The notes under the pieces: generated by a model
The model's database searches: none
Told to the model about the DNA's origin: nothing
What the model saw: only the letters and a program-made list of their open reading frames with translations
NCBI GenBank assembly: GCA_030654225.1
Contig: JAURXY010000026.1
Location: 10,448 to 74,447, forward strand
Direction of reading: 5' to 3'
Source of the DNA: a bacterium
GTDB taxonomy: Bacteria > Patescibacteriota > Minisyncoccia > Moranbacterales > UBA2206
DNA length: 64,000 nt
Position numbers and translations under genes: made by a program
Part shown: piece by piece, positions 386 through 57,437 of the stretch
Numbering within the stretch: the stretch's first letter is position 1
Layout of the letters: every line of letters begins with the position of its first letter

Positions 386-1645
386 TCAATGGCTTTGGGC
401 GCTGGATTTTCCAGCTGAATATCCCGTAGTCCAGGCGATTTGGAGGTTGTATCCGCCGGTTGGTCCGTCGAGATCCAATACTTCGCCAGCTAGATATAGA
501 TTGGAAATAATTTTGGAGCGCATAGTTTTGTTTTCTACTTCTTTCAAACTCACTCCGCCGGAAGTTATCATAGCTGATTCAAAATCCAAAAGTGAATCGA
601 CACTCAGACGAATATTTTTGAGAAGCTTGGCTAAGTTATTGCGATGATTTTTGCCGAGAGAATAAATTTTTCGGTCGGTTTCAAGTTTAGAAAGTTCTAA
701 AATTGTGAGAGCTAATTTTTGCGAAAAATATTCAGCCAGATAATTTTTCAAATCTTTTTTCTTATATTCTTCAAAATCTATTTTCAATTTTTCTTCTAGT
801 GCATTTTGTGTGAGAGTAGGGAAGAGGTCAAGTTTCAAAAAGATTTCACCCCTAGTAAGATTAGTACTTACATATTTACTGGCGTTAATTATCGCTGGTC
901 CGGAAAGGCCAAAATGAGTGAAAAGAATTTCTCCGGTTATTTCGAATATTTTTTTGTCCTGTTGTAATATTTTTATCCCGACATTTGGAAGGCTCACTCC
1001 CGGCAACTCTTTGACCCAGCGCTCTTTTATTTTTATCGGTGCAAGCGCCGGCATTGGAGAAATGATAGTGTGTCCCATTTTTTCAAGCCATGCATATCCA
1101 TCGCCAATCGAACCAGTGGTTGGAAAAGATTTTCCGCCAGTAGAAAGAATGAAATTTTTGGCATAGATTTTTCGCTCGGCTGTTTTGACGCAGACTATTT
1201 TTGCATCTTTTATTTCAAAAGCCAAAACATTTTGATTGAGTTTCACTACTACCCCATTTTTTTTCAAACTTTTTTTCAAAGTATCTAGTACGTCTTGCGC
1301 TTTGTCGCTCTCGGGGAAAACCCGGCCATCTTTTTCAGTTTTTAGTTTGAGTCCTAATTTCTCAAAAAATTCTTGGGTTTCGCGCGGACCAAAAACGGAG
1401 AGTCCAGAAAAAAGGAACTTACCACTTTTGCCAAGTTTTTCCACAAACTCCCGATTGGAAAAATTAGCTTGGGTAATGTTGCACCGCCCATTGCCAGTCA
1501 AAAGTAATTTCTTTCCCAGGGTAGAATTTTTTTCAATGATGGCTACTTTTTCATTATTTTCGCTCGCCAAAATCCCCGCCATCATTCCAGACGCTCCGCC
1601 TCCCACAATCACTGTATCAAATTTTTCTTCTTTTAGATTGTTCAT
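386..1645 (-). CDS. NAD(P)/FAD-dependent oxidoreductase, HI0933/BaiN-like flavoprotein
   Basis: N-terminal Rossmann GxGxxG (VIVGGGASG); family-typical length 419 aa. Confidence 0.75.
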   Translation of the reverse strand: MNNLKEEKFDTVIVGGGASGMMAGILASENNEKVAIIEKNSTLGKKLLLTGNGRCNITQANFSNREFVEKLGKSGKFLFSGLSVFGPRETQEFFEKLGLKLKTEKDGRVFPESDKAQDVLDTLKKSLKKNGVVVKLNQNVLAFEIKDAKIVCVKTAERKIYAKNFILSTGGKSFPTTGSIGDGYAWLEKMGHTIISPMPALAPIKIKERWVKELPGVSLPNVGIKILQQDKKIFEITGEILFTHFGLSGPAIINASKYVSTNLTRGEIFLKLDLFPTLTQNALEEKLKIDFEEYKKKDLKNYLAEYFSQKLALTILELSKLETDRKIYSLGKNHRNNLAKLLKNIRLSVDSLLDFESAMITSGGVSLKEVENKTMRSKIISNLYLAGEVLDLDGPTGGYNLQIAWTTGYSAGKSSAQSH

Positions 1646-1775
1646 AATAATTTTATCCTAGCATTGTTTGTAATTTTTTCCTATACAAGCTATTGATTTA
1701 TTGGGGAAAAAGGGGTAAAATGGAAGTGTCCAGTAACACTTTTTTAAAAGAATAATTGCCTATAAATATAATTTT

Positions 1776-2330
1776 ATGAATATAAAAAATAAAAATGCGA
1801 TAATACTCCATGGAACGGCTGACAAGCCGACTGATTTTTGGTTTCCGTCTTTGAAAAAAGATTTGGAAGCGAAGGGTTATGAAGTTTGGCTTCCTGAGCT
1901 TCCAAATGCCAAGTTTCCTAATCGAAAAGATTGGCTACCGTTTATTTTGGAAAATGGAAAGTTTACTGAAAAGACAGTTATCATTGGTCACTCAGCCGGC
2001 GCGCAAATAATTTTGAGTCTTTTGGAAAAGATTGAGGTGAAAATCAAACAAGCTATTATGGTGTCTGGTTATGCTAAGGCGCTACGAAGAGAGGAAAGTA
2101 GTGAAAAAAATGTTGATGATTATGATTGGGAGGCAATCAAACCAAAATGTGAAAAATTTGTTTTCATTAATTCCGACAATGATCCTTGGACTTGCGATGA
2201 TACACAAGGAAGGATTATGTTTGATAAGCTTGGTGGAATGCAAATAATTTTGCACGAAGGACACATGGGTTCAAATTATTATAATCAACCCTACAAAGAA
2301 TTCCCTTTAATTTCGAAACTGATTGATTGA
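1776..2330 (+). CDS. alpha/beta hydrolase, YdeN/RBBP9-type serine hydrolase
   Basis: GHSAG nucleophile elbow; about 180 aa single domain. Confidence 0.65.
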   Translation: MNIKNKNAIILHGTADKPTDFWFPSLKKDLEAKGYEVWLPELPNAKFPNRKDWLPFILENGKFTEKTVIIGHSAGAQIILSLLEKIEVKIKQAIMVSGYAKALRREESSEKNVDDYDWEAIKPKCEKFVFINSDNDPWTCDDTQGRIMFDKLGGMQIILHEGHMGSNYYNQPYKEFPLISKLID

Positions 2331-2492
2331 TGTTGTATGAATAATTTTTGTTCAGTAACTTGTTAAGTAACACTTTTCGAAGTAACAATTACATAATTAA
2401 TTACTTACATAAAAAATGAAAAGTAAAATAAAAACTAGTGCAGTCGTGGCGGCGGAATAAAAATTTCCCCAAACCTAAAACCGACATTGATT

Positions 2493-2526
2493 GACTATCC
2501 GACATTCTGCAGAAAGCCAGAATATT
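2493..2526. repeat. 34-bp direct repeat copy 1 (GACTATCCGACATTCTGCAGAAAGCCAGAATATT); candidate ArsR operator
   Basis: exact second copy at 2870-2903; overlaps an extended -10 TGGTATAAT upstream of arsR-like gene. Confidence 0.6.
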
Positions 2527-2567
2527 GTGGTATAATATTATTATCATAAAAAATAATAAAAATAAAA

Positions 2568-2867
2568 ATGTTAGCGAAAAAAAGACAAATTGAGAAAAAG
2601 CAAAAAACTCCATTGCAAATGGAGCGACACTTGAAGGGCGTAGCTAATCATCGGCGGATTGAAATTTTGTTTATTATCTCCGAAGAAGATGGAATTACAC
2701 TAGATGGAATATGCGAAGCGCTCAAAGGTAATACAAAGACAATTTCCGAACACACCAAAAAATTGGTTGGATCTGGCTTGGTGAATAAGAATCGTCGAGG
2801 CAGGAGAATGAGTCACTCACTTTCTCCCTATGGCAAACGCTTTTTGAAATTCATAAAAACATTCTAA
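2568..2867 (+). CDS. ArsR/SmtB-family transcriptional regulator
   Basis: HTH_ArsR signature (NHRRIEIL ... ISEHTKKLVGSGLV). Confidence 0.75.
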   Translation: MLAKKRQIEKKQKTPLQMERHLKGVANHRRIEILFIISEEDGITLDGICEALKGNTKTISEHTKKLVGSGLVNKNRRGRRMSHSLSPYGKRFLKFIKTF

Positions 2868-2869
2868 AT

Positions 2870-2903
2870 GACTATCCGACATTCTGCAGAAAGCCAGAAT
2901 ATT
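2870..2903. repeat. 34-bp direct repeat copy 2, upstream of nitroreductase gene
   Basis: identical to 2493-2526. Confidence 0.6.
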
Positions 2904-2994
2904 AATTGCGCAATTCATTACTTATATAGAATATTTTTTTGTTCCCTAATATGTTAAGTAACACTCTATTAAATAATTAATTAGATATTAAATT

Positions 2995-3498
2995 ATGCTT
3001 ATCGAATCAATTAGAAAGCGTCGGAGCATTCGGGTTTATAAATCTGACCCGATCTCGGATGAAATGGTCGAAGAGGTGATAAGAGCGGGAAAAATTGCCC
3101 CATCAGCTCATGGCGCAGATGCCTTAGAATTCATTGTGGTCAAAAAACAAGAAATGAAGGAGGCTATTTTTGTCATCGTCGGACAAGAAGTCGAGCAAGA
3201 TTTTGTCAAAGAAGCGCCAGTCATCATCATCCCGGTCGCCACTCACGAAGCAAAACTTCCGGTGCAGGATATTGCGGTTGCTTCTGAAAATATGTTTTTG
3301 CAAGCGACGGCGCTGGGGCTAGGCAGTGTCTGGAAAAATATCTCACCCGAGTTTGAAGGAAAGATAAAAACCTTGCTGGGCATTCCGGATAATGCCAAGG
3401 TGATCAATTTAATCCCATTGGGCTTTTCAGGCGAAGAAAAAGAGGAACACACCGAAGATGTGTCAGTGACGGAAAAAATTCACATGGAAAAGTGGTGA
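2995..3498 (+). CDS. nitroreductase family protein
   Basis: N-terminal RRSIRxY motif, about 165 aa. Confidence 0.7.
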   Translation: MLIESIRKRRSIRVYKSDPISDEMVEEVIRAGKIAPSAHGADALEFIVVKKQEMKEAIFVIVGQEVEQDFVKEAPVIIIPVATHEAKLPVQDIAVASENMFLQATALGLGSVWKNISPEFEGKIKTLLGIPDNAKVINLIPLGFSGEEKEEHTEDVSVTEKIHMEKW

Positions 3499-3554
3499 TA
3501 TTTGTTAGATAATATGTTAAGTAACATTTTATAAATAATTAATTATATAAAAAT

Positions 3555-4115
3555 ATGAAAAAAATCACTCTCGTCCCATTGCTATTTTTGGGTGTAATAA
3601 TTTTTTCTGGTTGTGGTGAAAAAACAGAACAAGTAAACAATGGAGAAAAAGCCACGGAGGTGGTGGCGGATAACAATTCTCCAGTAACTGCAAAAACCGC
3701 GGAAGGAATCTGCGGAATTTTTTCCAAGGAGTTTGTCGCTTCGGCCACGGGTCTAAATGTCACAACCGCCGAAACATATGCCACGGAAGGCGTGGAAAGT
3801 TCCAATTGTCGCTATTATATTGATGGCAAAAAAATCGCGCCAGTGATCACTATTGGGAAATTCAAAAATGATTTGGAAAAAGAAAAAAAGAAATATACGG
3901 AGCATCCACTTTTCAAGGGCTGGAGGATATTAAAGAATGACACAATACCTATGGATAATCTGGTCACCTATAATGAGGTCGGGCAATTGAATGACATTTT
4001 TTTGATCACAGGCACAAATGAATATTATCGCCTAACACTCTATTCTTTCAAAACTATTGGTAGTAACGAGATGATCACGTTGGCCTTGAAAGCGCAGAAA
4101 GAGATTGGAAAGTAA
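3555..4115 (+). CDS. lipoprotein, function unknown
   Basis: signal peptide ending with lipobox FSGC. Confidence 0.5.
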   Translation: MKKITLVPLLFLGVIIFSGCGEKTEQVNNGEKATEVVADNNSPVTAKTAEGICGIFSKEFVASATGLNVTTAETYATEGVESSNCRYYIDGKKIAPVITIGKFKNDLEKEKKKYTEHPLFKGWRILKNDTIPMDNLVTYNEVGQLNDIFLITGTNEYYRLTLYSFKTIGSNEMITLALKAQKEIGK

Positions 4116-4130
4116 TTATCTATCAAGCTT

Positions 4131-4159
4131 GACAAAACGAAAAAGAAAGGGTATACTTA
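4131..4159 (+). promoter_or_regulatory. sigma70-like promoter TTGACA-17-TATACT upstream of helicase gene
   Basis: hexamers read directly from the sequence. Confidence 0.4.
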
Positions 4160-4227
4160 CTTTTTATGTTAATACATCTTCACACGTATCTAAACATAAA
4201 ATAATTAATTTTTTATGTTAGATAACA

Positions 4228-5442
4228 ATGTATAACAAAACAAACGCGCGAAGTTCTCGCGCAGACAGTTCTTATGGTGGCAAAAGAGGCGGATCGCGTG
4301 GCGGTTCTCGTCCAAGTGGTCGAAAAAGATTTACTGGCAATGTAATTGATGTTAGTCGTTTCATTTGTAAGGCCAAAGAAATTGTGCCAACGGAAGTTTT
4401 CAAGCCTCGCTATGAATTTTGCGATCTTGAAATTCATACATTGCTCAAGCGCGCTATTGAAAGTCGTGGTTTTGCTGTGCCAACTCCGATTCAAGATCAA
4501 GCTATTCCGGCCATTCTTGCAGGAAAAGATGTGATTGGCTTGGCTAACACTGGCACTGGGAAAACGGGGGCTTTTCTCATTCCAATGATCAATAAAATTC
4601 TTTTGAATCCGCGTGAAAAAGTTTTGATTGTGACGCCGACTCGTGAGCTAGCCATTCAAATTCAAGATGAATTTATGGCGCTGGCTAAAAGACTAAATAT
4701 TTTTTCTGTGGTAGTAGTGGGAGGGGCGGATATTCGAAGACAAATAAAAGAATTGCATAGACGACATAATTTAGTCGTGGGTACTCCAGGGAGACTCAAA
4801 GACTTGATCACCCGAAAAGTTTTGGATCTATCGCAATTTAGTAGTGTGGTGCTCGACGAAGCTGATCGCATGCTCGACATGGGATTTATCAATGATGTAA
4901 ATTGGCTGTTGTCTCTCGTGGCAAAACAAAGACAGATTATGCTTTTCTCAGCAACATTCGGCGCTGAGATTGAAAGTTTAACCAGAAAATTTTTGGTTAA
5001 TCCTGTGAAAATTTCTGTTAAAAGTGGAGAGTCAGCTGGGCAAATTGATCAAAATATTGTGCGCATGGAAAAAGGCAAGGACAAGACAGACACACTGCAT
5101 GATTTGCTCATTCAAGCTAAATTTGAAAAAGTTTTGATTTTTACCCGCACCAAGCATGGCGCCGACAAGCTAACCAAGAGTTTGCTTCAGCGAGGTTTCA
5201 AGACTGAATCTATTCACGGCGACAAACCACACAGCAAAAGACAACGGGCACTCAAAATGTTCAAAGAAAATATTGTGGAAATTTTGGTCGCCACTGATGT
5301 GGCTGCTCGCGGACTCGACATTCCAAATGTGAGTCACGTCATTAATTTTGATCTTCCTGCAACTTATGAAGATTATGTCCACCGCATTGGTCGCACCGGT
5401 CGCGCCGACAAAAAAGGCATCGCGCTGACTTTTGTGGAATAA
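4228..5442 (+). CDS. DEAD-box ATP-dependent RNA helicase (RhlE/DeaD-like), Arg/Gly-rich N-terminus
   Basis: Q-motif, Walker A GTGKTGAF, DEAD, SAT, HRIGRTGR. Confidence 0.9.
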   Translation: MYNKTNARSSRADSSYGGKRGGSRGGSRPSGRKRFTGNVIDVSRFICKAKEIVPTEVFKPRYEFCDLEIHTLLKRAIESRGFAVPTPIQDQAIPAILAGKDVIGLANTGTGKTGAFLIPMINKILLNPREKVLIVTPTRELAIQIQDEFMALAKRLNIFSVVVVGGADIRRQIKELHRRHNLVVGTPGRLKDLITRKVLDLSQFSSVVLDEADRMLDMGFINDVNWLLSLVAKQRQIMLFSATFGAEIESLTRKFLVNPVKISVKSGESAGQIDQNIVRMEKGKDKTDTLHDLLIQAKFEKVLIFTRTKHGADKLTKSLLQRGFKTESIHGDKPHSKRQRALKMFKENIVEILVATDVAARGLDIPNVSHVINFDLPATYEDYVHRIGRTGRADKKGIALTFVE

Positions 5443-7700: not shown

Positions 7701-7864
7701 AGTGTTTCGAAAAAAATTAAACTAATAAAAAAGCATTGAGTTTTCATTCTAGCGCATTTTTGAAAATTTGGGAAGAGCACTGACACTAAAAACATCCTTT
7801 TGAAATATAATTCTATTGTTGTTGTACTATATCAAGTAGTTCAGTAAGCACTAATATATCAACT

Positions 7865-16484: not shown

Positions 16485-16488
16485 AATC

Positions 16489-16575
16489 TTTACTAATTAC
16501 GAATTAAGTACGAATATACTAATAAAAAATTCGTACATTCGTATATTAGTAAATGATTAATAATTCGTAAAGACA
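16489..16575. repeat. TACGAAT/ATTCGTA palindromic intergenic repeat, copy a
   Basis: about 85 percent identical to 48968-49047; imperfect palindrome. Confidence 0.7.
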
Positions 16576-20580: not shown

Positions 20581-20664
20581 ATGGGAAAAAGTTATCCACA
20601 GCTCAAAAGTTGCCGGAAATATCACAGAGTGATATAATATCATCATAACAAACTAAATAAAGTT

Positions 20665-21670: not shown

Positions 21671-21695
21671 AAAACCGCTATCACTGGCGGTTTTT
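21671..21695 (+). terminator. rho-independent terminator
   Basis: AAAACCGC-TATCACTG-GCGGTTTTT. Confidence 0.7.
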
Positions 21696-21777
21696 GATTT
21701 ATTGGGGGAAAGGGGGGTAGAATGGAAGTGTTAAGTAAAGTGTTAAGTAACAAGTTCAGTAACATAAATATAAACAT

Positions 21778-21960
21778 ATGTCTATGCGAAAAATTGAGGA
21801 AAAAAATGTGAGGAAGTTAACGAGGATGGGGAGAGAGGGAAGCAGTCTCGGGATGACCATCCCAAAGGAACTCATCGGCGAACTCGGCTGGCGCGAGCGT
21901 CAGAAAGTGGTGGTGAAAAAAGTTGGGAAAAATCTTGTAATTAGTGATTGGAAAAAATAA
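21778..21960 (+). CDS. AbrB/MazE/SpoVT-family small DNA-binding protein
   Basis: SSLGMTIPKELIGELGW ... KNLVI swapped-hairpin motif. Confidence 0.6.
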   Translation: MSMRKIEEKNVRKLTRMGREGSSLGMTIPKELIGELGWRERQKVVVKKVGKNLVISDWKK

Positions 21961-21971
21961 AAAATAATTTT

Positions 21972-22943
21972 ATGAAAAATAAATTAACTTTTATTGAAGA
22001 AGAAAATAAACTAATTCCGAATAGAATAATTGAAGAGCTAGGAATTAAGAATAATCAACAAATATATTTTGAAAAGGAATCAGAATCATTAAAAGTTTTT
22101 GAAATTGTTAATAAATTGCTCGGACCTCGTGGGTTTGAGGAATTTTCCGCCGGCCAGTTTAAAGCAATAGCGGGAGGATCATTAAACTGCTCAAATAAAA
22201 TTAAAAACTATGCAACTGGGAAAGGGGCTATCTCTAAGGGTTTTACTTATATCGCAGACATTATCAAATATTGCCAGATTTGTATTGATAATTCAGTCTT
22301 GATTCCTTTGGAAAGTATAATAGAAGAATTCGAGTGGGCGAAAAAAGCTATAAATGAGGGATATATTACATTACATTCGAATGGGAAGATGAGATATGAT
22401 ATTGAAGCAATTATGGATATAACAAAAGGTTTATTGGTGGAAGTTGCATTTAAAATTGATAGTGAGAGAAAAAATATAGAAATCGAATTGAATAGAGATT
22501 TTTTTACTGGGACAAGTAATACTGATGAGGGTCAAGATATCAAGCGGATAAAATTTACTGGTGATGTTTTTATATCTCCTCGGATAAAAGTACAAATTAA
22601 GGATACTCAATATTTTATACTTATTTCAGAAAATGAATTTAATGGGCCAAGAAAAGCAGAACTTTTTATTTCATATAAAGTACATTGGAAAAAAGCCAAT
22701 ACGGGGCAAAGATTTTTTAGAAGTCTTGGTGGAAGGGGCGAGCATATATTTTCCGATTTTCCAGTTCTTAAGGGAATACGAGCCGAAAGGAGAGGATGGG
22801 CGTTAAGAGAAGATTTTAAGGAATTAAAAAAGTTTAATAAATATAAAGGAAAATCTTTTAATAATGATAATATGTATGTTTATTGGGATGATTTGCGCGA
22901 TTTGAATGATCTTTTTTCAAAATTAAAAAATCTTATTGCTTAA
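21972..22943 (+). CDS. hypothetical protein; candidate restriction endonuclease/effector partner of the LexA-MTase
   Basis: no known motif; 3-prime end overlaps the convergent MTase gene by 11 nt. Confidence 0.45.
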   Translation: MKNKLTFIEEENKLIPNRIIEELGIKNNQQIYFEKESESLKVFEIVNKLLGPRGFEEFSAGQFKAIAGGSLNCSNKIKNYATGKGAISKGFTYIADIIKYCQICIDNSVLIPLESIIEEFEWAKKAINEGYITLHSNGKMRYDIEAIMDITKGLLVEVAFKIDSERKNIEIELNRDFFTGTSNTDEGQDIKRIKFTGDVFISPRIKVQIKDTQYFILISENEFNGPRKAELFISYKVHWKKANTGQRFFRSLGGRGEHIFSDFPVLKGIRAERRGWALREDFKELKKFNKYKGKSFNNDNMYVYWDDLRDLNDLFSKLKNLIA

Positions 22944-24507
22944 TCGCTTTCATAATTTGTTTTGCTACGGCCGTAACCACAGGGACACTCACAGAATTTC
23001 CAGCTTGCTTGTATAGTGAAGAGTCAGCCAAGTTTTTTGGCAGGATAAATGTTTTTGGAAATCCTTGTAGCCTAAAACATTCAAGAGGAGTCAGTTTTCT
23101 GATTCCTTTTTTGTCTTTTATAATTGGAACATTATGTCCACCCGTTCCCATATTAGCAGTGAGAGTTGGACACACGCCTTTTTTGTTTTCCCTCACATAT
23201 TGTCTTCTCCATTGATAAACTTTTCCTCCTTCATTTACAAAATCCTTAAGTTTTTCAAAGAGTGGTTTGTCGTTATAATAATATTTTTTGTCCACATTTT
23301 TTTCCAAAAGGTCAGTGACTCTTAGTTTCAATTCTTGTGGCTCTGGAAATTCAAATTTATCTGAATAATCTTTATTCTTAAATCCGACTATATAAATTCT
23401 TTCTCGGTTTTGTGGAACATTACCATACTCCATAGTGTTTAAAACTTTAGTTTTCACATGATAGCCCAAATCTTCTAGTGTCTGGATGATTATACTAAAA
23501 GTTTTCCCGTTGTCATGACCTTTGAGATTTTTTACATTTTCCAAAAGAAATCCTTCGGGCTTTCTAGCTTCCAAAATTCTTGCAACATCAAAAAACAAAT
23601 TTCCCCGATCTTTTTCATCATTAAATCCTTTGCGATATCCTGCGATTGAAAATGCTTGGCAAGGAAAACCGCCCAAGAGAAAATCAAATTTTGGTAAATC
23701 ATCAATTTCAATTTTTCTCATATCTTCCACGATAAGTTTTGATTTTTTGAAATTCAAATCATAAGTGTTCTTGCAATATTTATCAAAATCATTTGCAAAA
23801 ACTGTTTCAAATCCTGCATTTTCAAAACCTAATCTTATACCTCCAACTCCGGCAAATAAATCTAAGGTTCTAAATAATTTTTGTTTTGAGTCGCTAGGGG
23901 TATTCTCTAAATTTCTTTTTATCTCAATAACCACCCCTCTAATCTCAACTTCTTTCCTATATATCGGCAACATTGTTTGATTGGCTGGTTGAAGTCGGAA
24001 TCTATTTTTCTCTCGGTATATTTTTTTCAAAGTGGCTTCATTGTCATCAATTATCGCGACCACTGTCTGGCCATTTTCTGCCGAAGATTGTTTTTTTATA
24101 ACCACAATGTCACCATCGAAAATTCCTTCATCAATCATGCTCGTACCCCTAACTTCGAGAGCATAATATTGTTCATCTTTTTTTATATTACCCGAAGCAA
24201 TCATCACGCTTTCTCCTATTGTTTCTATGGCTTCGATTGGCTGACCGGCAACTATTACTCCAACTAATGGAATTTTTATAAGGCTATATGGATTTTTCTT
24301 TTTCAATTCGATCCCTCTAGCTGAACTTCCATTTCTTTCGATGAATTCTTTTTTCTCCAATGCTTCTAAGTGTTGGTGAATAGTTGAAGGAGCGGAGAGT
24401 TTGAAATGTTTTCTAATTTCTTCGATAGTAGGGGATAGCCTTTTTTTATTTATATAAGATTTGATAAAATCTAGTATTTGTTTTTGTTTTTTTGTGAGAG
24501 TGGACAT
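22933..24507 (-). CDS. fusion of full LexA-like repressor (wHTH + S24 peptidase) and DNA (cytosine-5)-methyltransferase
   Basis: N-term wHTH; VAG-Q cleavage site; S24 Ser (GTSM) and Lys (ATLKK) 38 aa apart; then MTase motifs I DLFAGVGG, IV GFPCQAFS, VI ENV, VIII QNRERIYIVG, X GNSVSVPV. Confidence 0.85.
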   Translation of the reverse strand: MSTLTKKQKQILDFIKSYINKKRLSPTIEEIRKHFKLSAPSTIHQHLEALEKKEFIERNGSSARGIELKKKNPYSLIKIPLVGVIVAGQPIEAIETIGESVMIASGNIKKDEQYYALEVRGTSMIDEGIFDGDIVVIKKQSSAENGQTVVAIIDDNEATLKKIYREKNRFRLQPANQTMLPIYRKEVEIRGVVIEIKRNLENTPSDSKQKLFRTLDLFAGVGGIRLGFENAGFETVFANDFDKYCKNTYDLNFKKSKLIVEDMRKIEIDDLPKFDFLLGGFPCQAFSIAGYRKGFNDEKDRGNLFFDVARILEARKPEGFLLENVKNLKGHDNGKTFSIIIQTLEDLGYHVKTKVLNTMEYGNVPQNRERIYIVGFKNKDYSDKFEFPEPQELKLRVTDLLEKNVDKKYYYNDKPLFEKLKDFVNEGGKVYQWRRQYVRENKKGVCPTLTANMGTGGHNVPIIKDKKGIRKLTPLECFRLQGFPKTFILPKNLADSSLYKQAGNSVSVPVVTAVAKQIMKAIKQ

Positions 24508-24810
24508 ATAATTGACGCAGGATATTATTTTGTTATAATTCTATTATACCGAAAAAAAACCGAACTAGCAAAAGCGAGTTATCCACAGCACGACCCTTTG
24601 AATATTTTAAGTAAAACTAATTTTTTGTTCAGCGACATGCTAAGTAACACTTTTTTTATTAGAACTGGTTCTTGGAAAGCTTGTCGGGAATAGGGTATAG
24701 AATAAGCAACAGCTATTGACATAATAAACTCAATCAATTAAGATTATTTTACTGGGTAATTTCGAAACCCTAGTCGTTTCGTTTTTTTAATTTAATGATT
24801 TTTATTTTAT

Positions 24811-25230: not shown

Positions 25231-25354
25231 TTGAAAATCTTTACGAATTACTAATCAAATACTAATATACGAATAATATTTATAAGTTGAGAGAATTTTT
25301 TTAGTTTACATTAGTATATTCGTACTTAATTCGTAATTAGTAAAGAATAAGTTT

Positions 25355-25822
25355 ATGGCAAGAAGAAAAAGAATTTATCAAAAAAATACTAAACCTGATC
25401 CAAAGTATAACAACATACTAGTTGGAAAATTTATGGTGAGCATCATGGAAAGCGGAAAGAAAACTATTGCAGAAAAAATAATGTATGATTCTTTTGATAT
25501 CATTCACGAAAGAACAAAAAAGGGTGGTTTGAATATTTTTGAACAAGCTATTAAGAATGTTTCTCCTTTGGTGGAATTGAAATCCCGCCGAGTTGGAGGT
25601 GCTAACTATCAGGTGCCTGTTCCCGTAGCAGGAGACAGAAGAACAACTTTGGCTATTCGTTGGTTAAAAGTAGCTATTAATGCGAAAAAAGGCAAGAAAA
25701 TGGCAGAAAAATTGGCTGATGAACTAATTGATGCTTCCAACAAAATTGGCGGAGCTATGAAAAAACGAGAAGATGTTCATCGAATGGCTGATGCTAATAA
25801 GGCTTTTGCGCACTTCGCTTAA
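25355..25822 (+). CDS. rpsG: 30S ribosomal protein S7
   Basis: family match, 155 aa. Confidence 0.95.
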   Translation: MARRKRIYQKNTKPDPKYNNILVGKFMVSIMESGKKTIAEKIMYDSFDIIHERTKKGGLNIFEQAIKNVSPLVELKSRRVGGANYQVPVPVAGDRRTTLAIRWLKVAINAKKGKKMAEKLADELIDASNKIGGAMKKREDVHRMADANKAFAHFA

Positions 25823-25924
25823 TTTACGAAAGTACGAATCTGGCGAAATTACGAATTCGTATTTTCGTTTAATTCGTATATTCGTAAATTATAAATAAAA
25901 TTAAGAAAGTAAAAATCAAATTAT

Positions 25925-28015: not shown

Positions 28016-28024
28016 AATATAGGA

Positions 28025-28070
28025 AACAAATTTAAATTCAGTAGAGACGAGGCACTGCCTCGTCTTTTTC
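28025..28070 (+). terminator. fusA terminator / REP-like hairpin (copy 1 of 46-bp direct repeat)
   Basis: GTAGAGACGAGGCACTGCCTCGTCTTTTT; near-identical at 29026-29072. Confidence 0.75.
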
Positions 28071-28133: not shown

Positions 28134-28364
28134 ATGATAAAGTTTCGTCAGGCATTATTTTGGGATACTAATCCAAAGAATATAGATACAGAGAAAAACG
28201 CTCAATATATCATTGAACGCGTTTTGGATTTTGGCAATGATAGAGAGGTAAAATGGCTTTATAATTTCTACGATAAATCGTTGTTAAAAAAAGTTGTCGC
28301 TAAGTCTCGTTCGCTAATGCCAGAAACAAAAAATTTATGGATAATGCTTCTAGAAAGCAAATAG
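28134..28364 (+). CDS. small protein upstream of AbiEii-family toxin (putative antitoxin partner)
   Basis: 76 aa; overlaps toxin start; recalled similarity to partners of DUF1814 toxins. Confidence 0.4.
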   Translation: MIKFRQALFWDTNPKNIDTEKNAQYIIERVLDFGNDREVKWLYNFYDKSLLKKVVAKSRSLMPETKNLWIMLLESK

Positions 28365-29014
28365 AATATAATTTTAGTATTATACCTGCAAAAACAAAAA
28401 AAGCGTTTGTTTTTTTGTCTGGACAAAATTGGCTTAGCGAAAGCGGATGGTATTTGGCTGGTGGAACTGCGCTGGCATTGCAAACAGGGAATCGCAAGTC
28501 AGTGGATTTGGATTTTTTTACCGTAGAAAAAGATTTTGATAAATCAGAATTGCTTGAAAATTTTTCAGAAAATAAAGAATGGAAAACTACCCTAAATAGA
28601 AAAAATACCGTTTATGGCGAACTGTCTAAGGCCAAAATAAGTTTTATCGCTTATCCTTTTTTTGTTCCTAAACAAGAATTTATCCAATATGGTTCGATTA
28701 AAATTTTGCAACCGCGCGATATTGCCGTAATGAAAATTATCGCCATTTCACAACGCGGACGCAAGCGTGATTTTTTTGATCTGTATTGGTGTGCAAAAAA
28801 TGTGGAATCATTAGAAGATTTGATAATAAGATTGAAAGTGCAATATCCTTTTGTGGCACACGATTATCATCATATTTTGAAAAGTTTAGTTTATTTTCAA
28901 GACGCAGAAAATGATCCACTGCCAGATATCACTTTTAAGGCGGATTGGAAAGAAATTAAGGATTATTTTAAAAAAGAAATTTTACGCATTACCAAAAAAA
29001 TAATCTTAAAATAG
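28337..29014 (+). CDS. nucleotidyltransferase AbiEii/AbiGii-family toxin (DUF1814)
   Basis: LAGGTALALQTGNRKSVDLDFF signature. Confidence 0.75.
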   Translation: MDNASRKQIEYNFSIIPAKTKKAFVFLSGQNWLSESGWYLAGGTALALQTGNRKSVDLDFFTVEKDFDKSELLENFSENKEWKTTLNRKNTVYGELSKAKISFIAYPFFVPKQEFIQYGSIKILQPRDIAVMKIIAISQRGRKRDFFDLYWCAKNVESLEDLIIRLKVQYPFVAHDYHHILKSLVYFQDAENDPLPDITFKADWKEIKDYFKKEILRITKKIILK

Positions 29015-29025
29015 AAAAAGCATTA

Positions 29026-29072
29026 AACAAATTTAAATTCCGTAGAGACGAGGCACTGCCTCGTCTTTTTTG
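29026..29072 (+). terminator. REP-like terminator hairpin (copy 2 of direct repeat)
   Basis: same hairpin and flanks as 28025-28070. Confidence 0.7.
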
Positions 29073-29805: not shown

Positions 29806-29833
29806 GTAGAGACGCAAAATTTTGCGTCTCTAC
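29806..29833. repeat. 28-bp perfect palindrome GTAGAGACGCAAAATTTTGCGTCTCTAC (REP-like), copy 1, 25 bp upstream of RAYT gene
   Basis: exact copies at 30147-30174 and 54579-54606. Confidence 0.9.
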
Positions 29834-29858: not shown

Positions 29859-30416
29859 ATGTCAGAATTATTCAAAAACAAATACACAATTAAATCATCC
29901 AGATTATCAAATTATGATTATTCTCAAAATGGAATGTACTTCGTTACGATTTGCACGAAAGACAAGGAATATTTTTTTGGGGAGGTGAAAAATGGGGGAA
30001 TGGTGTTGAATGATGTGGGGAAAATGGCAGATAAATATTGGCGCGAAATTCCAGCGCATTTTCCATTTGTAAGATTAGATGAATTTGTTGTAATGCCCAA
30101 TCATGTGCATGGGATTGTGGAAATTGCAAAAAACATTGATGCTAGCGTAGAGACGCAAAATTTTGCGTCTCTACAGGGCGAAAGGGGAAATAAATTTGGT
30201 CCACAATCAAAAAATTTAGCCTCTATAATTCGTGGTTTTAAGGTGGGGGTAAAAAAATATACAACAAAAAATGAAATTTATTTCCAATGGCAACCCCGTT
30301 ATTACGACCAAATAATTCGAAACGAAATTTCCCTAAACAAAATTCGTGAATATATCCAAATTAATCCGCAGATGTGGGAAAGAGATAAAAACAGTTTAGA
30401 AAATATATTTATGTAA
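29859..30416 (+). CDS. REP-associated tyrosine transposase (RAYT) / IS200-like HuH transposase
   Basis: HuH motif MPNHVHGIV; C-terminal EYIQINP and RYYDQ Tyr region; contains in-frame REP copy 2. Confidence 0.7.
   Translation: MSELFKNKYTIKSSRLSNYDYSQNGMYFVTICTKDKEYFFGEVKNGGMVLNDVGKMADKYWREIPAHFPFVRLDEFVVMPNHVHGIVEIAKNIDASVETQNFASLQGERGNKFGPQSKNLASIIRGFKVGVKKYTTKNEIYFQWQPRYYDQIIRNEISLNKIREYIQINPQMWERDKNSLENIFM
30147..30174. repeat. REP-like 28-bp palindrome copy 2, in-frame inside RAYT ORF (encodes SVETQNFASLQ)
   Basis: exact palindrome. Confidence 0.9.
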
Positions 30417-32125: not shown

Positions 32126-32230
32126 AGTATGCGAATAGCGCGCTACGAATGCGCACATGCGAATTGCTCCGAATTTTTTCGTAGATTCGTGTTCATTCGT
32201 AGTTTCGCATCGGATATTATTAAAAACTAA

Positions 32231-37158: not shown

Positions 37159-37220
37159 GATGACCGATGCGAAACTACGAATGATATGCGAATCTACGAA
37201 TAATAAGATATGAAAAAATT

Positions 37221-40115: not shown

Positions 40116-40192
40116 AATTTACGAAAGTACGAATTAAACTAAATTACGAATTCGTATTTTCGCTCGATTAGTAATTTCGTAAATGAAAAACA

Positions 40193-40540: not shown

Positions 40541-40613
40541 AACGCGATGCGAATCTACGAATAGCATGCGAATCTACGAACATGCATTTGTAAATTAGCA
40601 AAATTATAATTTT

Positions 40614-48938: not shown

Positions 48939-48967
48939 TTTGAAGATATAAATATAAATTAATTTTT

Positions 48968-49047
48968 ACTAATTACTAATTTTATACGAATATACTAATA
49001 AAAAATTTGTACATTCGTATATTAGTAAGTGATTAGTAATTCGTAAA
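48968..49047. repeat. TACGAAT/ATTCGTA palindromic intergenic repeat, copy h
   Basis: about 85 percent identical to 16489-16575. Confidence 0.7.
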
Positions 49048-49050
49048 GTT

Positions 49051-54442: not shown

Positions 54443-55450
54443 ATGAATAAAATAATTGAATTAGAAATGGGCGGAGGAGGAAAAAAATCGGAAGAACTTA
54501 TTGGAAACATAAGGAAAATTTTGAATGTTCGTGGAAAATGGAAAAACACTAAGGATGATGGGGCGGTTTTTGACTTGAGTAGAGACGCAAAATTTTGCGT
54601 CTCTACGGGGGGTAATAAGTTGGTGTTTACCACCGATGCTTTTATTGTTGACCCACTGTTTTTTCCGGGAGGGGATATTGGAAAAATTGCGATTTGCGGA
54701 ACGTTAAATGATCTTTCGGTTATGGGCGCTAAGCCGATTGGAATTTCACTCAGTATTGTAATCGAAGAAGGATTTTTGCAAAACGATTTGGAAAAAATAA
54801 TTCAGTCTATAAATAAAATTTCGAAAGTTACAGGCGTTCCGATTGTGACGGGGGACACAAAGGTGACAGAAAAAGGCAAGATAGATAAAATTGAAATTAC
54901 CACTTCGGGAGTAGGGCTCGCTTCAAAAATAATTTCTAATGATGGCGCAAAAGTGGGGGATGATATAATCGTTTCTGGCGATCTTGGTGAGCACGCAGTA
55001 GCGCTTTTGGCCAAGAGATTTAACTATCAAACAAAAATAAAAAGCGATTGTCAACCGCTCATTGCCGAAATTCAAAGTGTAGCTAAATATCTTACTTCTT
55101 GCAAGGATCCAACGCGTGGCGGACTGTCCGCTGTGCTAAATGAAATGGCGGAAAAATCCAAAACTAAATTTGTTTTAGATGAAAAAAATTTACCATTTAA
55201 AAAAGAAACTGTGGCAATTTCAGAACTTCTTGGCATTGATTTTTTTTCTTTTCCATCAGAAGGAAGGTTTGTGGCGACAGTGGCGAGAAAAAATTCCAAG
55301 AGAGTTGTTGAAATTTTGAAAAAATATAATAAATCTGCTAGAATAATTGGAGAAGTGCAAAGGGGCAAAGAAGTTTGGCTGAAAACCAAAATTGGATCTG
55401 TCAAAAAAATTGAAGTGCCAAGAGGAAAATTAATTCCACGGATTTGCTAA
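54443..55450 (+). CDS. hypE: hydrogenase maturation factor HypE
   Basis: DPLFFPGGDIGKIAICGTLNDL; contains in-frame REP-like palindrome. Confidence 0.85.
   Translation: MNKIIELEMGGGGKKSEELIGNIRKILNVRGKWKNTKDDGAVFDLSRDAKFCVSTGGNKLVFTTDAFIVDPLFFPGGDIGKIAICGTLNDLSVMGAKPIGISLSIVIEEGFLQNDLEKIIQSINKISKVTGVPIVTGDTKVTEKGKIDKIEITTSGVGLASKIISNDGAKVGDDIIVSGDLGEHAVALLAKRFNYQTKIKSDCQPLIAEIQSVAKYLTSCKDPTRGGLSAVLNEMAEKSKTKFVLDEKNLPFKKETVAISELLGIDFFSFPSEGRFVATVARKNSKRVVEILKKYNKSARIIGEVQRGKEVWLKTKIGSVKKIEVPRGKLIPRIC
54579..54606. repeat. REP-like 28-bp palindrome copy 3, in-frame inside hypE (encodes RDAKFCVST)
   Basis: exact copy of 29806-29833. Confidence 0.9.
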
Positions 55451-56123: not shown

Positions 56124-57437
56124 TTATTTTCCCAAAAGATAATAAACGATTTGCCCAAAAGAAAGTCCGGCGTCGCCACGGGGTATATTTTTATTGGCAT
56201 AAGCTCCTTTAGAAATAAGATACTCGGAAATTATTTTATTATTGGCAATGCCGCCAGCGATAAAAATATTGTCATGAGCAAATGCAGGTTCAGGTATCTT
56301 GCCTGAACATTTTATTTCTGGAAAAATTTTATTTAAATTGCTAAATTTAAGTTTATCAGAACTTTGCGGTTTAATCGGGACGATTGAACCTGCATTATTA
56401 TAGCATTTTAGTTTTATTATTTTATACAAGCCATTGACTATATAAAGTTGAGCAGTGGCGGCAAGACGATGCTTATCTTTTTTATGTAAGTATTTAATTA
56501 CGTAATTAAATAAATAAGTAGTATCTAAAATATATTCATCTTCCGAAATTGTTATTTTTGGTTTTAAATCAGAATAAGGTTTAGCTGAATTTTTTTCTAG
56601 TAAATCAATGGGTTCATGCTTGTATTTTCGGGCATTCCCACAAAAACCTAAAAGTAAAGAAACAGCATCCAAAACTCTTCCAGCGCTAGAAGTTTCGAGG
56701 CAATTGAAATTTTGTTGAAGCTGATTATATATAAGTTCAAATTCGTTTTTGGTGTAGAATTTTTTGACGAAATTATAAATATTTTTTTTGTGTTGTATCT
56801 CGCCCTTACCCTCTCCTGTCGCGAGTACGCGACATCCTCTCCCAAAGGGAGAGGAGGAATCTGAAAAAAGTTTATATAAAACTCCAATGAGCATTCTGGC
56901 TGGCTCTCGTACAGCCAAATCCCCACCAACCATAACCTGATTTTCCAAATGCCCAATTCGTTTTACGCTTTCTACTTTATTCTTTCTACTTTCTACTTGA
57001 AAGATTTCTCCGCCCCAAATTTTTTCATCTACTCCAAAACCAGTACCATCTATAGCGATTCCATAAAAAGTAGAAGGTAGTAAGTAGGAAGTATTATGCA
57101 AAATTTTGTCTCCAATAGAAGAAAATATGTGAGCGAGGTGATGTTGAATAAAAAGGTGTTTCACTTTATATTTTTTGGCGAGTTTCTCTCCCCAAATAGT
57201 GGTTTTATATAGCGGATGAAGGTCAGTGAGAATTATTTGCGGTTTAATTTTTTGTTTTTTCAAATATTGCAAAACTTCTTTTTGATACCTTTCCCAATTT
57301 TCTTCTTCCAATAAATCCCCAAAATCATCCGAAAAAAATATTTTTCCATCACGAAAAACCGAAAAATTCCCAGCCGATTCAGCGCCGAGAGCTAAAATGG
57401 ATATATTTCTTTTGTATCCAAGGGAAATTGTTTGCAT
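56124..57437 (-). CDS. hypF: HypF C-terminal (Kae1/TsaD-like carbamoyltransferase) domain protein; lacks acylphosphatase, Zn-finger and YrdC domains
   Basis: LALGAESAGNFSV, TDLHP, QHHLAHI, IAIDGTGFGVDEKIWGGE; start trimmed to MQTISLGYK. Confidence 0.75.
   Translation of the reverse strand: MQTISLGYKRNISILALGAESAGNFSVFRDGKIFFSDDFGDLLEEENWERYQKEVLQYLKKQKIKPQIILTDLHPLYKTTIWGEKLAKKYKVKHLFIQHHLAHIFSSIGDKILHNTSYLLPSTFYGIAIDGTGFGVDEKIWGGEIFQVESRKNKVESVKRIGHLENQVMVGGDLAVREPARMLIGVLYKLFSDSSSPFGRGCRVLATGEGKGEIQHKKNIYNFVKKFYTKNEFELIYNQLQQNFNCLETSSAGRVLDAVSLLLGFCGNARKYKHEPIDLLEKNSAKPYSDLKPKITISEDEYILDTTYLFNYVIKYLHKKDKHRLAATAQLYIVNGLYKIIKLKCYNNAGSIVPIKPQSSDKLKFSNLNKIFPEIKCSGKIPEPAFAHDNIFIAGGIANNKIISEYLISKGAYANKNIPRGDAGLSFGQIVYYLLGK

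What the first reader, a model, noticed from the sequence alone, without database searches (positions are those of the whole stretch)
1694..4227. Conserved bipartite upstream motif GTTAAGTAACAC - N8 - ATAATTAATTA in front of successive genes
The motif appears nearly identically upstream of the nitroreductase (2953-2984), lipoprotein (3517-3548) and hydrolase/mini-ORF (2357-2398) genes. Partial forms appear upstream of the helicase (4198-4206), the AbrB-like gene (21731-21757, with GTTAAGTAA duplicated) and in the rpsL leader (24641-24652). The fixed spacing to the start codon (10-20 nt after the AT box) and the absence of SD sequences suggest a promoter architecture. It could be an alternative-sigma or leaderless-type promoter, or a shared transcription-factor site, for a regulon of stress or accessory genes.
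Basis: seen in the sequence. Interest (0 to 1): 0.5.

Follow-up and report, generated by a model that had tools for sequence, protein, structure and literature searches.

The report
Repeated operator boxes of AbrB-like regulator
The repeated GTTAAGTAAC sequence in front of several small genes is most likely not a promoter but the binding site of a tiny AbrB/MazE-type DNA-binding protein encoded 18 kb away, a regulator-and-operator pair found across many uncultivated Parcubacteria (candidate phyla radiation, CPR) and not described in the literature I could search.

Summary
The GTTAAGTAAC half of the motif is real. Ten of 12 copies with at most one mismatch lie in the 15% of the window that is non-coding, and all are on the + strand. 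The fixed "bipartite" form (N7-8, then ATAATTAATTA) holds only for two near-duplicate 37-nt cassettes, in front of the nitroreductase and lipoprotein genes.

The conserved element is a 10-bp quasi-palindrome, GTT[A/C]AGTAAC, usually in arrays with a 12-bp period. Where a promoter is recognisable, the array sits after a canonical sigma-70 -10 box (1-20 nt) and before the ATG. It is therefore not the promoter.

Seventeen of 18 distinct orthologues of the window's 60-aa AbrB/MazE-fold protein (21778-21960) carry such arrays directly upstream. Six of the seven lineages fetched by protein alone carry a 12-bp-period array: five the same box, one the AT-box type.

The same boxes precede accessory enzymes in other lineages: nitroreductase, thioredoxin-reductase-like, NUDIX, Macro and phosphatases.

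The AT box belongs to a related box type, a TTAATTAcGTAATTAA palindrome with GTAATTAA units at 12-bp period. This type precedes a divergent subgroup of the same protein family.

Best reading: autoregulated repressor operators, analogous to MraZ boxes. Binding is inferred, not shown.

The parts
1693..1721 (+). Sigma-70-type promoter (TTGATT-17-TAAAAT, G-rich spacer) of the Ser-hydrolase gene. It is the same cassette as 21694-21723.
   Evidence: promoter scan. (1693-1729 matches 21694-21731 at 89%). The same cassette occurs in L129, L133 and L150 and in L157.
1728..1737 (+). Single box GTCCAGTAAC, 6 nt after the -10 and 38 nt before the ATG of the hydrolase gene (1776-2330).
   Evidence: Pfam Ser_hydrolase.
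2350..2386 (+). Box array GTTCAGTAAC-tt-GTTAAGTAAC, then TCGAAGTAAC 15 nt further on (the 'X module'). There is no gene directly downstream, only a 14-codon mini-ORF.
   Evidence: The same 33-nt module is at 24622-24654 and in L007 5958-5979.
2379..2408 (+). It is probably a remnant 5' leader.
   Evidence: The same module directly precedes the ATG of a Peptidase_S51 gene in L171 and of an AbrB homologue in L174.
2492..2526 (+). First copy of a 35-bp perfect direct repeat containing ATTCTGCAGAA. Candidate operator of the ArsR-like gene 2568-2867. It is a separate system from the GTTAAGTAAC boxes.
   Evidence: ATTCTGCAGAAT lies upstream of an ArsR-like gene in L173.
2869..2903 (+). Second copy of the 35-bp repeat, upstream of the nitroreductase promoter region.
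2941..2962 (+). Two boxes at 12-bp spacing, GTTCCCTAAT-at-GTTAAGTAAC. They lie 9 nt after a -10-like TAGAAT (2927-2932) and 32 nt before the nitroreductase ATG (2995).
   Evidence: GTTAAGTAACAC is kept 12/12 in the 89%-identical orthologue L171.
2973..2983 (+). AT box ATAATTAATTA, a half of the class-2 palindrome type. It is only loosely conserved in the orthologue.
3504..3525 (+). Two boxes at 12-bp spacing, GTTAGATAAT-at-GTTAAGTAAC, in the 56-nt spacer between the nitroreductase and lipoprotein genes.
3535..3545 (+). AT box ATAATTAATTA, 9 nt before the lipoprotein ATG (3555).
4217..4226 (+). Weak box GTTAGATAAC (8/10) directly before the DEAD-helicase ATG (4228). There is an AT-box-like ATAATTAATTT at 4201-4211, and the promoter TTGACA-17-TATACT lies at 4129-4157.
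   Evidence: Low confidence as a site.
7839..7848 (+). Single box GTTCAGTAAG, 8 nt after TACTAT and 16 nt before the ATG of a 65-aa DUF6364-like gene.
21694..21723 (+). Promoter TTGATT-18-TAGAAT of the AbrB-like gene.
21730..21763 (+). Three boxes at 12-bp period (GTTAAGTAAA gt GTTAAGTAAC aa GTTCAGTAAC), 6 nt after the -10 and 14 nt before the ATG. Proposed autoregulatory operator.
   Evidence: The equivalent arrays occur in 17 of 18 orthologue loci.
21778..21960 (+). 60-aa AbrB/MazE/SpoVT-fold protein, the proposed cognate regulator.
   Evidence: Pfam PF04014, 25.4 bits against a cut-off of 24.7. Profile search of PDB sequences: best hits are the AbrB N-domain at E about 0.04. AF2 model with pLDDT 84.7 matches MazE and AbrB-N with TM 0.6-0.68. 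89 homologue clusters, named by sources as Moraniibacteriota or Paceibacterota.
24627..24648 (+). Degenerate two-box copy (GTTCAGCGAC-at-GCTAAGTAAC) in the divergent region between the LexA-methylase gene and the rpsL promoter. Orphan, not in the canonical position.
56478..56512 (-). Copy of the Y-type palindrome (TTAATTACGTAATTAA core) inside the HypF_C-like coding region.
   Evidence: Unexplained.

Best explanation
The conserved element is a 10-bp quasi-palindromic box, GTT[A/C]AGTAAC, with the perfect palindrome GTTACGTAAC as a variant. It usually occurs as 2-4 boxes at a 12-bp period. The boxes lie in the initially transcribed region, between a sigma-70-type -10 box and the start codon.

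I propose that the boxes are operators of the 60-aa AbrB/MazE-fold protein encoded at 21778-21960. Dimers of this protein would bind successive boxes cooperatively. They would repress by blocking RNA polymerase at the promoter, or by blocking read-through from upstream genes.

The protein would autoregulate: its own gene has three boxes, the largest array in the window. It would co-regulate a set of accessory genes. In this window these are the Ser-hydrolase, nitroreductase, lipoprotein, a DUF6364-like gene, and perhaps the DEAD helicase.

The AT box is not the second half of a promoter. It is a fragment of a related, more AT-rich box type (TTAATTAcGTAATTAA palindrome, GTAATTAA units at 12-bp period). 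That type occupies the same -10-to-ATG position upstream of a divergent subgroup of the same protein family.

Shown here: the sequence anatomy, the intergenic enrichment, the cross-lineage linkage to the protein family, and the fold of the protein.
Inferred: that this protein binds these boxes, and that binding represses.
For: 1. Enrichment. 10 of 12 boxes are intergenic in a window that is 85% coding. There are 5 phased pairs against <=0.03 expected, using a PWM trained on other lineages.

2. Forward association. Among 119 unique motif sites in the metagenome loci and the window (116 of them in metagenome loci, 63 of which look intergenic), 10 sites, nine from metagenomes plus the window's own, sit directly upstream of orthologues of the 60-aa protein. 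This is a family with only 89 clusters among 5.8 billion protein clusters.

3. Reverse association. Seven homologue lineages were fetched by protein only.
- Five have the same boxes within 60 nt of the ATG: L157, L158, L161, L164, L165.
- L174 has 12-bp-phased GTAATTAA units of the AT-box type.
- L168, the most divergent, has another 12-bp repeat.
- Over all loci, 17 of 18 distinct orthologues carry GTTnnGTAAC boxes upstream, one of them a single intact box and one about 130 nt from the ATG.

4. Features that point to DNA rather than RNA.
- Units occur inverted inside arrays with the phasing kept, for example GTTACTGAAC-tt-GTTAAGTAAC-aa-GTTCAGTAAC in L076, L094 and L161.
- No RNA structure is detectable (z from -0.7 to +1.3).
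- There is no Rfam hit.

5. Position. Arrays start 1-20 nt after TAnAAT in 12 of 18 orthologue loci and in window copies A, B and H (read by eye).

6. The protein has the DNA-binding swapped-hairpin fold.

7. Precedent. MraZ, of the same superfamily, is an autorepressor that binds 3-4 repeated boxes with the transcription start site inside box 1 (PMC12957436).

8. Orthologous footprint. GTTAAGTAACAC is 12/12 conserved upstream of the 89%-identical nitroreductase in L171, while the AT-rich leader has indels. In L172, successive small genes each carry the box.
Against: - No binding or expression data exist. The link between protein and box is genomic association only.
- Arrays are polar with respect to the downstream gene. 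27 sites have a forward ORF within 100 nt, 11 of them within 10 nt. Only 13 have a reverse ORF, and their distances are flat. A purely symmetric operator would not need this polarity; direct-repeat binders such as MraZ do show it.
- Enrichment of -10-like hexamers upstream of non-AbrB sites is weak: 17 against 8 in the control flank.
- Several boxes lie in spacers of about 50 nt between co-directional genes with no recognisable promoter (3504, L157 18196, L171 636).
- Some boxes abut terminators or tRNA genes.
- Box copies share flanks (ATTTTT...ACTTTTT), so part of their similarity is common descent or duplication rather than independent selection.
- Some arrays are split by GC-rich or hairpin insertions that break the 12-bp phasing (L157, L171, L172).
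- The 75%- and 61%-identical nitroreductase orthologues lack the box.
Confidence: 0.55

Rival explanations
1. The boxes are transcription-factor operators, but they are bound by a regulator other than the AbrB-like protein. The AbrB-like gene would then be only the most frequent target.
For: The protein-box link is associative only. Other regulators are nearby: an ArsR-like gene at 2568-2867 sits among the boxes, and a LexA-domain fusion lies at 22933-24507.
Against: The ArsR-like gene has its own distinct repeated palindrome, ATTCTGCAGAA(T), at its promoter in the window and in L173. 17 of 18 AbrB orthologues carry the boxes whatever their neighbours are. Divergent protein subgroups carry different box types (L168, L174), as expected if the protein reads its own upstream boxes.
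Confidence: 0.12
2. The motif acts in the mRNA as a 5'-leader element. It could promote SD-independent translation initiation, or be a processing or stability site separating successive cistrons.
For: The arrays are polar and sit very close to the ATG, with a modal gap of 7 nt. The genome largely lacks SD sequences. Boxes occur in short intercistronic spacers without an obvious promoter. A T-run often follows (GTAACACTTTTT).
Against: Inverted units within arrays change the RNA sequence but keep the duplex site. No stable or significant RNA fold is found and there is no Rfam family. The gap to the ATG ranges from 3 to about 130 nt. Most genes in the window, including the ribosomal-protein genes, start without the motif.
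Confidence: 0.13
3. The copies are remnants of a duplicating intergenic cassette, a 'mobile promoter' or MITE-like module. They would have no common regulatory role in this genome.
For: Copies share flanks beyond the boxes: 1693-1729 with 21694-21731, 2345-2377 with 24622-24654, 2947-2983 with 3510-3545. The X and Y modules occur in swapped order in L007. There are orphan copies at 2350 and 24627. The window is full of other short dispersed repeats.
Against: There are no terminal inverted repeats or target duplications. The 10-bp core is conserved across contigs of 28-44% GC whose flanks are unrelated. The 12-bp phasing and the position between -10 and ATG are kept. The core is 12/12 conserved at an orthologous site while its flanks drift.
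Confidence: 0.1
4. One reading: the bipartite motif is itself a promoter, either for an alternative sigma factor or of a leaderless type.
For: The array-to-ATG gap peaks at about 7 nt in other lineages, which would fit a start at the ATG if the last box acted like a -10 element. An ECF-type sigma gene follows the AbrB gene in L161. AGTAAC resembles the 'AAC' -35 elements of ECF sigma factors (from my own knowledge, not tested).
Against: The sigma-70 scan does not score it as a promoter. Good canonical promoters lie just upstream of the arrays in many lineages. In the window the gaps to the ATG are 14-38 nt. The number of boxes (1-4) and their orientation vary. The AT box is not conserved with the box outside two duplicated cassettes.
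Confidence: 0.07

Closest known systems
MraZ and its repeated boxes upstream of the dcw operon
   Same: Same protein superfamily (SpoVT/AbrB 'cradle' or swapped-hairpin). It is an autoregulator encoded as the first gene of the operon. It binds 3-4 short boxes at a fixed period, with the transcription start inside or next to the boxes. The box array is polar, made of direct repeats (PMC12957436).
   Different: MraZ has two AbrB-type domains per chain (from my own knowledge) and forms octamer or nonamer rings. Its boxes are GTG(G/T) with 6-nt spacers, a 10-bp period. Here the protein is a single 60-aa domain, the boxes are 10-bp quasi-palindromes at a 12-bp period, the downstream genes are variable (restriction-modification and accessory genes), and many unlinked genes carry the boxes.
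AbrB / Abh / SpoVT transition-state regulators of Bacillus
   Same: N-terminal swapped-hairpin DNA-binding domain (best sequence and fold matches). A global repressor of accessory or stationary-phase genes that also controls its own gene (from my own knowledge).
   Different: AbrB has a C-terminal multimerisation domain and binds without a strict consensus. Here there is only the DNA-binding domain, with a 6-residue loop insertion and a sharp, repeated consensus.
MazE/VapB(AbrB-type) antitoxins and their promoter operators
   Same: Best fold matches are MazE (2MRN, 1UB4_C). It is a small protein upstream of, and overlapping, a second gene. Palindromic operators lie at its own promoter.
   Different: There is no conserved toxin partner. 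Downstream genes differ between lineages: HsdM, HsdR, a large methyltransferase, RhuM/Fic-like, GlyRS, a sigma factor. The protein lacks a C-terminal toxin-binding tail. The boxes also occur at many unlinked genes.
Controller (C) proteins of restriction-modification systems and their C-boxes
   Same: In several lineages the gene heads a restriction-modification operon: HsdM in L157 and L158, HsdR in L133. In the window it overlaps a 331-aa ORF that is convergent with a C5 methyltransferase. It is autoregulated by repeated sites between the promoter and the gene.
   Different: C proteins are Xre-type helix-turn-helix proteins with C-boxes confined to their own operon (PMC5282649 describes such sites in Mollicutes). 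Here the fold is AbrB/MazE and the boxes are dispersed over unrelated genes.

Membership tests
Sigma-70-type core promoter (-35/-10) | Two hexamers resembling TTGACA and TATAAT, 16-18 nt apart | tested here: not met
   The motif is not reported by the promoter scan of 1600-4300. The AT box offers only TAATTA or TTAATT, which lack the conserved T at position 6 or A at position 2.
Sigma-70-type core promoter (-35/-10) | Lies upstream of the transcription start at a fixed distance | tested here: inconclusive
   There are no transcription-start data. By sequence, canonical promoters lie 1-20 nt upstream of the arrays, and gaps to the ATG vary from 3 to about 130 nt.
Repressor operator (transcription-factor binding site) | Over-represented in non-coding DNA near gene starts | tested here: met
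   10 of 12 boxes are intergenic against 15% non-coding. 5 phased pairs against <=0.03 expected.
Repressor operator (transcription-factor binding site) | Dyad symmetry and/or phased repeats. Works in either orientation in duplex DNA. | tested here: met
   GTTA..TAAC core, with the perfect palindrome GTTACGTAAC in L165. The 12-bp period is kept, and inverted units occur within arrays. Caveat: whole arrays are polar relative to the gene.
Repressor operator (transcription-factor binding site) | Conserved upstream of the regulator's own gene across lineages | tested here: met
   17 of 18 orthologue loci. Of the 7 lineages fetched by protein only, 5 carry the same box and 1 carries the AT-box type.
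Repressor operator (transcription-factor binding site) | Direct, sequence-specific binding by the protein and an effect on transcription | not testable with these tools
   Needs EMSA or footprinting and reporter assays.
AbrB/MazE/SpoVT (swapped-hairpin) DNA-binding superfamily (the protein at 21778-21960) | Sequence match to PF04014 above the curated threshold | tested here: met
   25.4 bits against a cut-off of 24.7, E 1.4e-5. The profile search against PDB sequences finds the AbrB N-domain at E about 0.04 over the whole domain.
AbrB/MazE/SpoVT (swapped-hairpin) DNA-binding superfamily (the protein at 21778-21960) | Swapped-hairpin beta fold | tested here: met
   AF2 monomer model with pLDDT 84.7. 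Foldseek top hits are MazE, AbrB-N, SpoVT and VapB, with TM 0.5-0.68 and probability up to 1.0. The dimer was not modelled.
Type II toxin-antitoxin module (MazE-like antitoxin) | A conserved adjacent toxin gene | tested here: not met
   Downstream genes differ among lineages. The window's partner (331 aa) has no Pfam, NCBIfam or PADLOC hit.
Structured cis-regulatory RNA (riboswitch or leader) | A conserved, stable secondary structure, or a known family | tested here: not met
   Rfam at gathering threshold finds only a tRNA in the window. Fold z-scores range from -0.7 to +1.3.
Integron attC / MITE / REP-type mobile repeat | Paired inverted core sites or terminal inverted repeats flanking the unit, located after cassette ORFs | tested here: not met
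   GTTAAGT fits GTTRRRY, but no partner RYYYAAC site or 60-140-nt imperfect palindrome is present in the 56-nt spacers. The position tracks the downstream start codon.

The most novel reading that the evidence does not exclude
A family of single-domain AbrB/MazE-fold proteins acts as a lineage-wide master regulator in Parcubacteria (Moranbacteria and relatives). It would read short boxes at a 12-bp period placed between the -10 and the ATG. Protein subgroups and box types would have co-diversified (GTTMAGTAAC, GTAATTAA, GTATTCGAATAC). The same regulator would couple restriction-modification and defence operons, which it often heads, to a regulon of redox and detoxification accessory enzymes. 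If so, it would be one of the first regulons to be defined in the CPR.
Probability: 0.3. Interest if true: 0.65.

Novelty: new member of a known kind. Interest (0 to 1): 0.45.

Why it matters
My literature searches found nothing on this motif or on AbrB-type regulators in Patescibacteria, and, to my knowledge, gene regulation in CPR/Patescibacteria is little studied. These organisms are uncultivated, have small genomes and have few recognisable regulators.

This finding offers a sharply defined box, recognisable across many metagenomic lineages, paired with a candidate 60-aa regulator. That gives a directly testable regulon by EMSA, heterologous reporters or metatranscriptome 5' ends. It also gives a way to predict co-regulated accessory and defence genes in these genomes.

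It corrects the tempting reading of the motif as a promoter. It also shows that SD-less, AT-rich leaders are a genome-wide trait here.

Tried and rejected
1. A scan of GTDB representative genomes for the full bipartite pattern gave only 5 unrelated chance hits. The bipartite form is therefore not a general motif.

2. An exact-protein look-up of the nitroreductase failed, although the protein is in the database as P0090.

3. Integron attC reading (GTTAAGT = GTTRRRY): rejected, because there is no inverse core site or attC palindrome.

4. Sigma-70 promoter reading of the motif: rejected.

5. RNA structure or riboswitch: rejected.

6. ArsR-like protein (2568-2867) as the binder: unlikely, because it has its own ATTCTGCAGAA(T) palindrome.

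7. The viral contig scan gave mostly coding tandem repeats and phage-internal repeats unrelated to this lineage.

8. About half of the metagenome hits were coding 12-nt tandem repeats in very AT-rich or GC-rich contigs. They were filtered out by ORF cover and copy number.

9. A positional test for -10 hexamers upstream of all metagenome sites was only weakly positive.

10. Literature searches for the box sequence and for AbrB in Patescibacteria found nothing relevant.


Full report
**Observation**

The window is 36% GC and comes from a Parcubacteria-like genome.
- Its rpsL protein is identical to those of several groundwater MAGs.
- The AbrB-like and nitroreductase proteins match, at 100%, proteins of an NCBI MAG contig of 101,427 bp. 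Close homologues are labelled Candidatus Moraniibacteriota.

ATAATTAATTA is exact at 2393, 2973 and 3535.

Reduced to the 10-mer GTT[AC]AGTAAC:
- 6 of 6 exact copies and 10 of 12 one-mismatch copies are intergenic, although 85% of the window is coding.
- All are on the + strand.

The element is real.

The 'bipartite, fixed N8' description is weaker. The two halves are 8, 7 and 19 nt apart. The two tight copies (2947-2983 and 3510-3545) are 92% identical over 37 nt and look like one duplicated cassette. The copy at 24639 is upstream of the rpsL promoter, not in its leader. That promoter (TTGACA-17-TAAGAT, 24716-24744) is conserved in ten related loci that lack the motif.

**Anatomy**

Read in register, the copies are arrays of 10-bp boxes at a 12-bp period:
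- 2350: GTTCAGTAAC-tt-GTTAAGTAAC
- 2941: GTTCCCTAAT-at-GTTAAGTAAC
- 3504: GTTAGATAAT-at-GTTAAGTAAC
- 21730: GTTAAGTAAA-gt-GTTAAGTAAC-aa-GTTCAGTAAC
- 24627: GTTCAGCGAC-at-GCTAAGTAAC

Single boxes lie at 1728 and 7839. Each box is a quasi-palindrome, GTTA..TAAC.

In the clearest cases the array begins just after a canonical promoter:
- TTGATT-17-TAAAAT at 1693-1721, then 6 nt.
- TTGATT-18-TAGAAT at 21694-21723, then 6 nt.
- TACTAT, then 8 nt, at 7839.

The motif itself is not scored as a -35/-10 pair. The organism clearly uses standard promoters, for example at rpsL and the helicase gene. SD cores are found in only 9 of 69 genes, no more than in random sequence. The lack of SD near the motif is therefore a genome-wide trait.

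**Evidence from elsewhere**

About half were coding tandem repeats in unrelated contigs. After these were removed, 63 intergenic-like sites remained.

Nine of these sites, from contigs of 34-42% GC, lie directly upstream of orthologues of the window's 60-aa protein at 21778-21960. The family has only 89 clusters in the protein database.

The reverse test is independent of the motif. Seven homologue lineages were fetched by protein sequence alone.
- Five carry the same boxes within 60 nt of the ATG: L157, L158, L161, L164 and L165, the last with the perfect palindrome GTTACGTAAC.
- L174 (60% identity, short-loop subgroup) carries three GTAATTAA units at 12-bp period right after TGGTATAAT.
- L168 (55% identity) carries yet another 12-bp repeat.

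Over all loci, 17 of 18 distinct orthologues have GTTnnGTAAC boxes upstream. In one of them (L157) only a single intact box remains; in another (L041) the array lies about 130 nt from the ATG. In 12 of the 18, a TAnAAT hexamer lies 1-20 nt before the first box; I read this by eye from the sequences.

Units also occur inverted inside arrays with the phasing kept, in L076, L094, L152 and L161. This is expected for a duplex-DNA site, not for an RNA motif.

**The protein**

- Pfam PF04014 (MazE/AbrB/SpoVT) just above threshold.
- The family profile aligns over its full length with the AbrB N-domain, E about 0.04.
- An AlphaFold model (pLDDT 84.7) matches MazE, AbrB-N, SpoVT and AbrB-type VapB.
- It has no conserved toxin partner. 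Downstream genes include HsdM, HsdR, a large methyltransferase, RhuM/Fic-like and Bro-N-like genes, GlyRS and an ECF sigma gene.
- In the window it overlaps a 331-aa ORF of unknown family. That ORF is convergent with a LexA-S24-C5-methyltransferase fusion. This suggests a controller-like role for a restriction-modification pair.

**Other genes with boxes**

In other lineages the boxes precede:
- a nitroreductase, a thioredoxin-reductase-like flavoprotein, NUDIX, Macro, histidine phosphatase, metallophosphoesterase, TspO and RibD_C proteins;
- a P-type-ATPase-like protein, identified from its N-terminal sequence only.

An 89%-identical orthologue of the window's nitroreductase (L171) keeps GTTAAGTAACAC 12/12, while the AT-rich leader has indels. 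In L172, successive small accessory genes each carry GTTAAGTAAC-ACTTTTT, much like window 1694-4227. More distant orthologues (L172's own nitroreductase, L173) lack it.

**The AT box**

Outside the window the AT box does not accompany the boxes. It belongs to a second repeat, the 'Y module': an imperfect palindrome around TTAATTAcGTAATTAA. Copies:
- 2379-2408, and 56478-56512 on the minus strand (inside a coding region);
- after the HsdR gene in L007 and L014;
- directly before a Peptidase_S51 ATG in L171.

The alignment shows that this module is the same sequence type as the 12-bp-phased units upstream of the short-loop AbrB homologue in L174.

In L007 the two modules occur in the opposite order. 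This shows they are separable.

**Mechanism proposed**

Dimers of the 60-aa protein bind successive boxes and repress transcription at or just after the start site, including at its own gene. This mirrors MraZ, an AbrB-superfamily autorepressor that binds 3-4 repeated boxes with the transcription start inside box 1 (PMC12957436).

Shown: the anatomy, the enrichment, the cross-lineage linkage and the fold.
Inferred: binding, repression and membership of individual genes in the regulon.

**What does not fit neatly**

- Arrays are polar towards the downstream gene, and the gap to the ATG peaks at about 7 nt.
- Upstream -10 signals are weak for many non-AbrB sites.
- Some boxes sit in spacers of about 50 nt without a visible promoter, or next to terminators or tRNA genes.
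- Copies share flanks, so they are partly related by duplication.
- Some arrays are split by hairpin insertions.

These points keep alive four rivals: an RNA-leader role, a duplicating-cassette explanation, a different binder, and, least likely, a promoter for leaderless transcripts. No RNA structure or Rfam family supports the RNA reading.

**Novelty**

Searches for the box sequence and for AbrB in Patescibacteria found nothing relevant. The kind of system, a small autoregulator with repeated operators, is well known. This regulator-box pair and its spread in Parcubacteria appear to be undescribed. I rate it a new member of a known kind, of moderate interest.

Noticed in passing
window 2492-2526 and 2869-2903: A perfect 35-bp direct repeat flanks the ArsR-like gene (2568-2867). 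It contains ATTCTGCAGAA. The full palindrome ATTCTGCAGAAT sits at the promoter of an ArsR-like gene in L173. It is probably that regulator's own operator, placed before itself and before the nitroreductase.
   Followed up: partly
window 22933-24507 (-), with 21948-22943 (+): A single ORF fuses a LexA DNA-binding domain, a Peptidase_S24 domain and a C5 cytosine methyltransferase (524 aa). It is convergent with a 331-aa ORF of no known family that overlaps the AbrB-like gene. This may be a restriction-modification pair with unusual SOS-type control.
   Followed up: partly
window 16487-16573, 25238-25346, 25821-25890, 32193-32213, 37164-37202, 40116-40184, 40545-40580, 48965-49048: A family of TACGAAT/ATTCGTA-rich inverted repeats lies in the spacers of the ribosomal-protein and translation gene cluster. 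A divergent AbrB homologue (L168) is preceded by GTATTCGAATAC-type 12-bp repeats, so these may be another box type.
   Followed up: no
window 29806-29833, 30147-30174, 54579-54606: Three copies of a perfect 28-bp palindrome (GTAGAGACGCAAAATTTTGCGTCTCTAC). Two of them are at an ORF with a weak IS200-like Y1 transposase match (29859-30416). This resembles a REP/RAYT arrangement.
   Followed up: no
window 20591-20602, 24578-24589, (30760); L006 5220, L007 6031: A DnaA-box-like GTTATCCACAGC, followed by CAArAGTTGCC and a TATAAT 17 nt later, recurs upstream of unrelated genes in the window and in related genomes. It is a second reusable promoter module.
   Followed up: partly
window 1693-1729 and 21694-21731; L129, L133, L150, L157: The same promoter cassette with a G-rich spacer (TTGATTTATTGGGGGAAAGGGGGGTAGAATGGAAGT) drives non-homologous genes (hydrolase, AbrB-like, metallophosphoesterase). 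It looks like a propagated promoter-operator unit.
   Followed up: partly
window 56478-56512 (-): A copy of the AT-rich Y palindrome (core TTAATTACGTAATTAA, 93% identical to 2387-2416) lies inside the open reading frame of a HypF_C/Kae1-like carbamoyltransferase gene.
   Followed up: partly
L041, L056, L088, L110, L157 (between the boxes and the AbrB ATG): Small hairpin elements of the form CCCnGTTAAAT...ATTTAACnGGG are inserted between the box array and the start codon in several lineages. GC-rich inserts also split box pairs in L157, L171 and L172. They look like MITE-type insertions into the operator region.
   Followed up: no
window 28024-28069 and 29025-29070: A 46-nt direct repeat (98% identical) brackets the AbiEii-like gene 28337-29014.
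   Followed up: no
whole window: Only 9 of 69 genes have a Shine-Dalgarno core within 21 nt of the start, no more than in random sequence. The 21 nt before starts are 80% A+T. Translation initiation seems largely independent of SD in this organism.
   Followed up: yes
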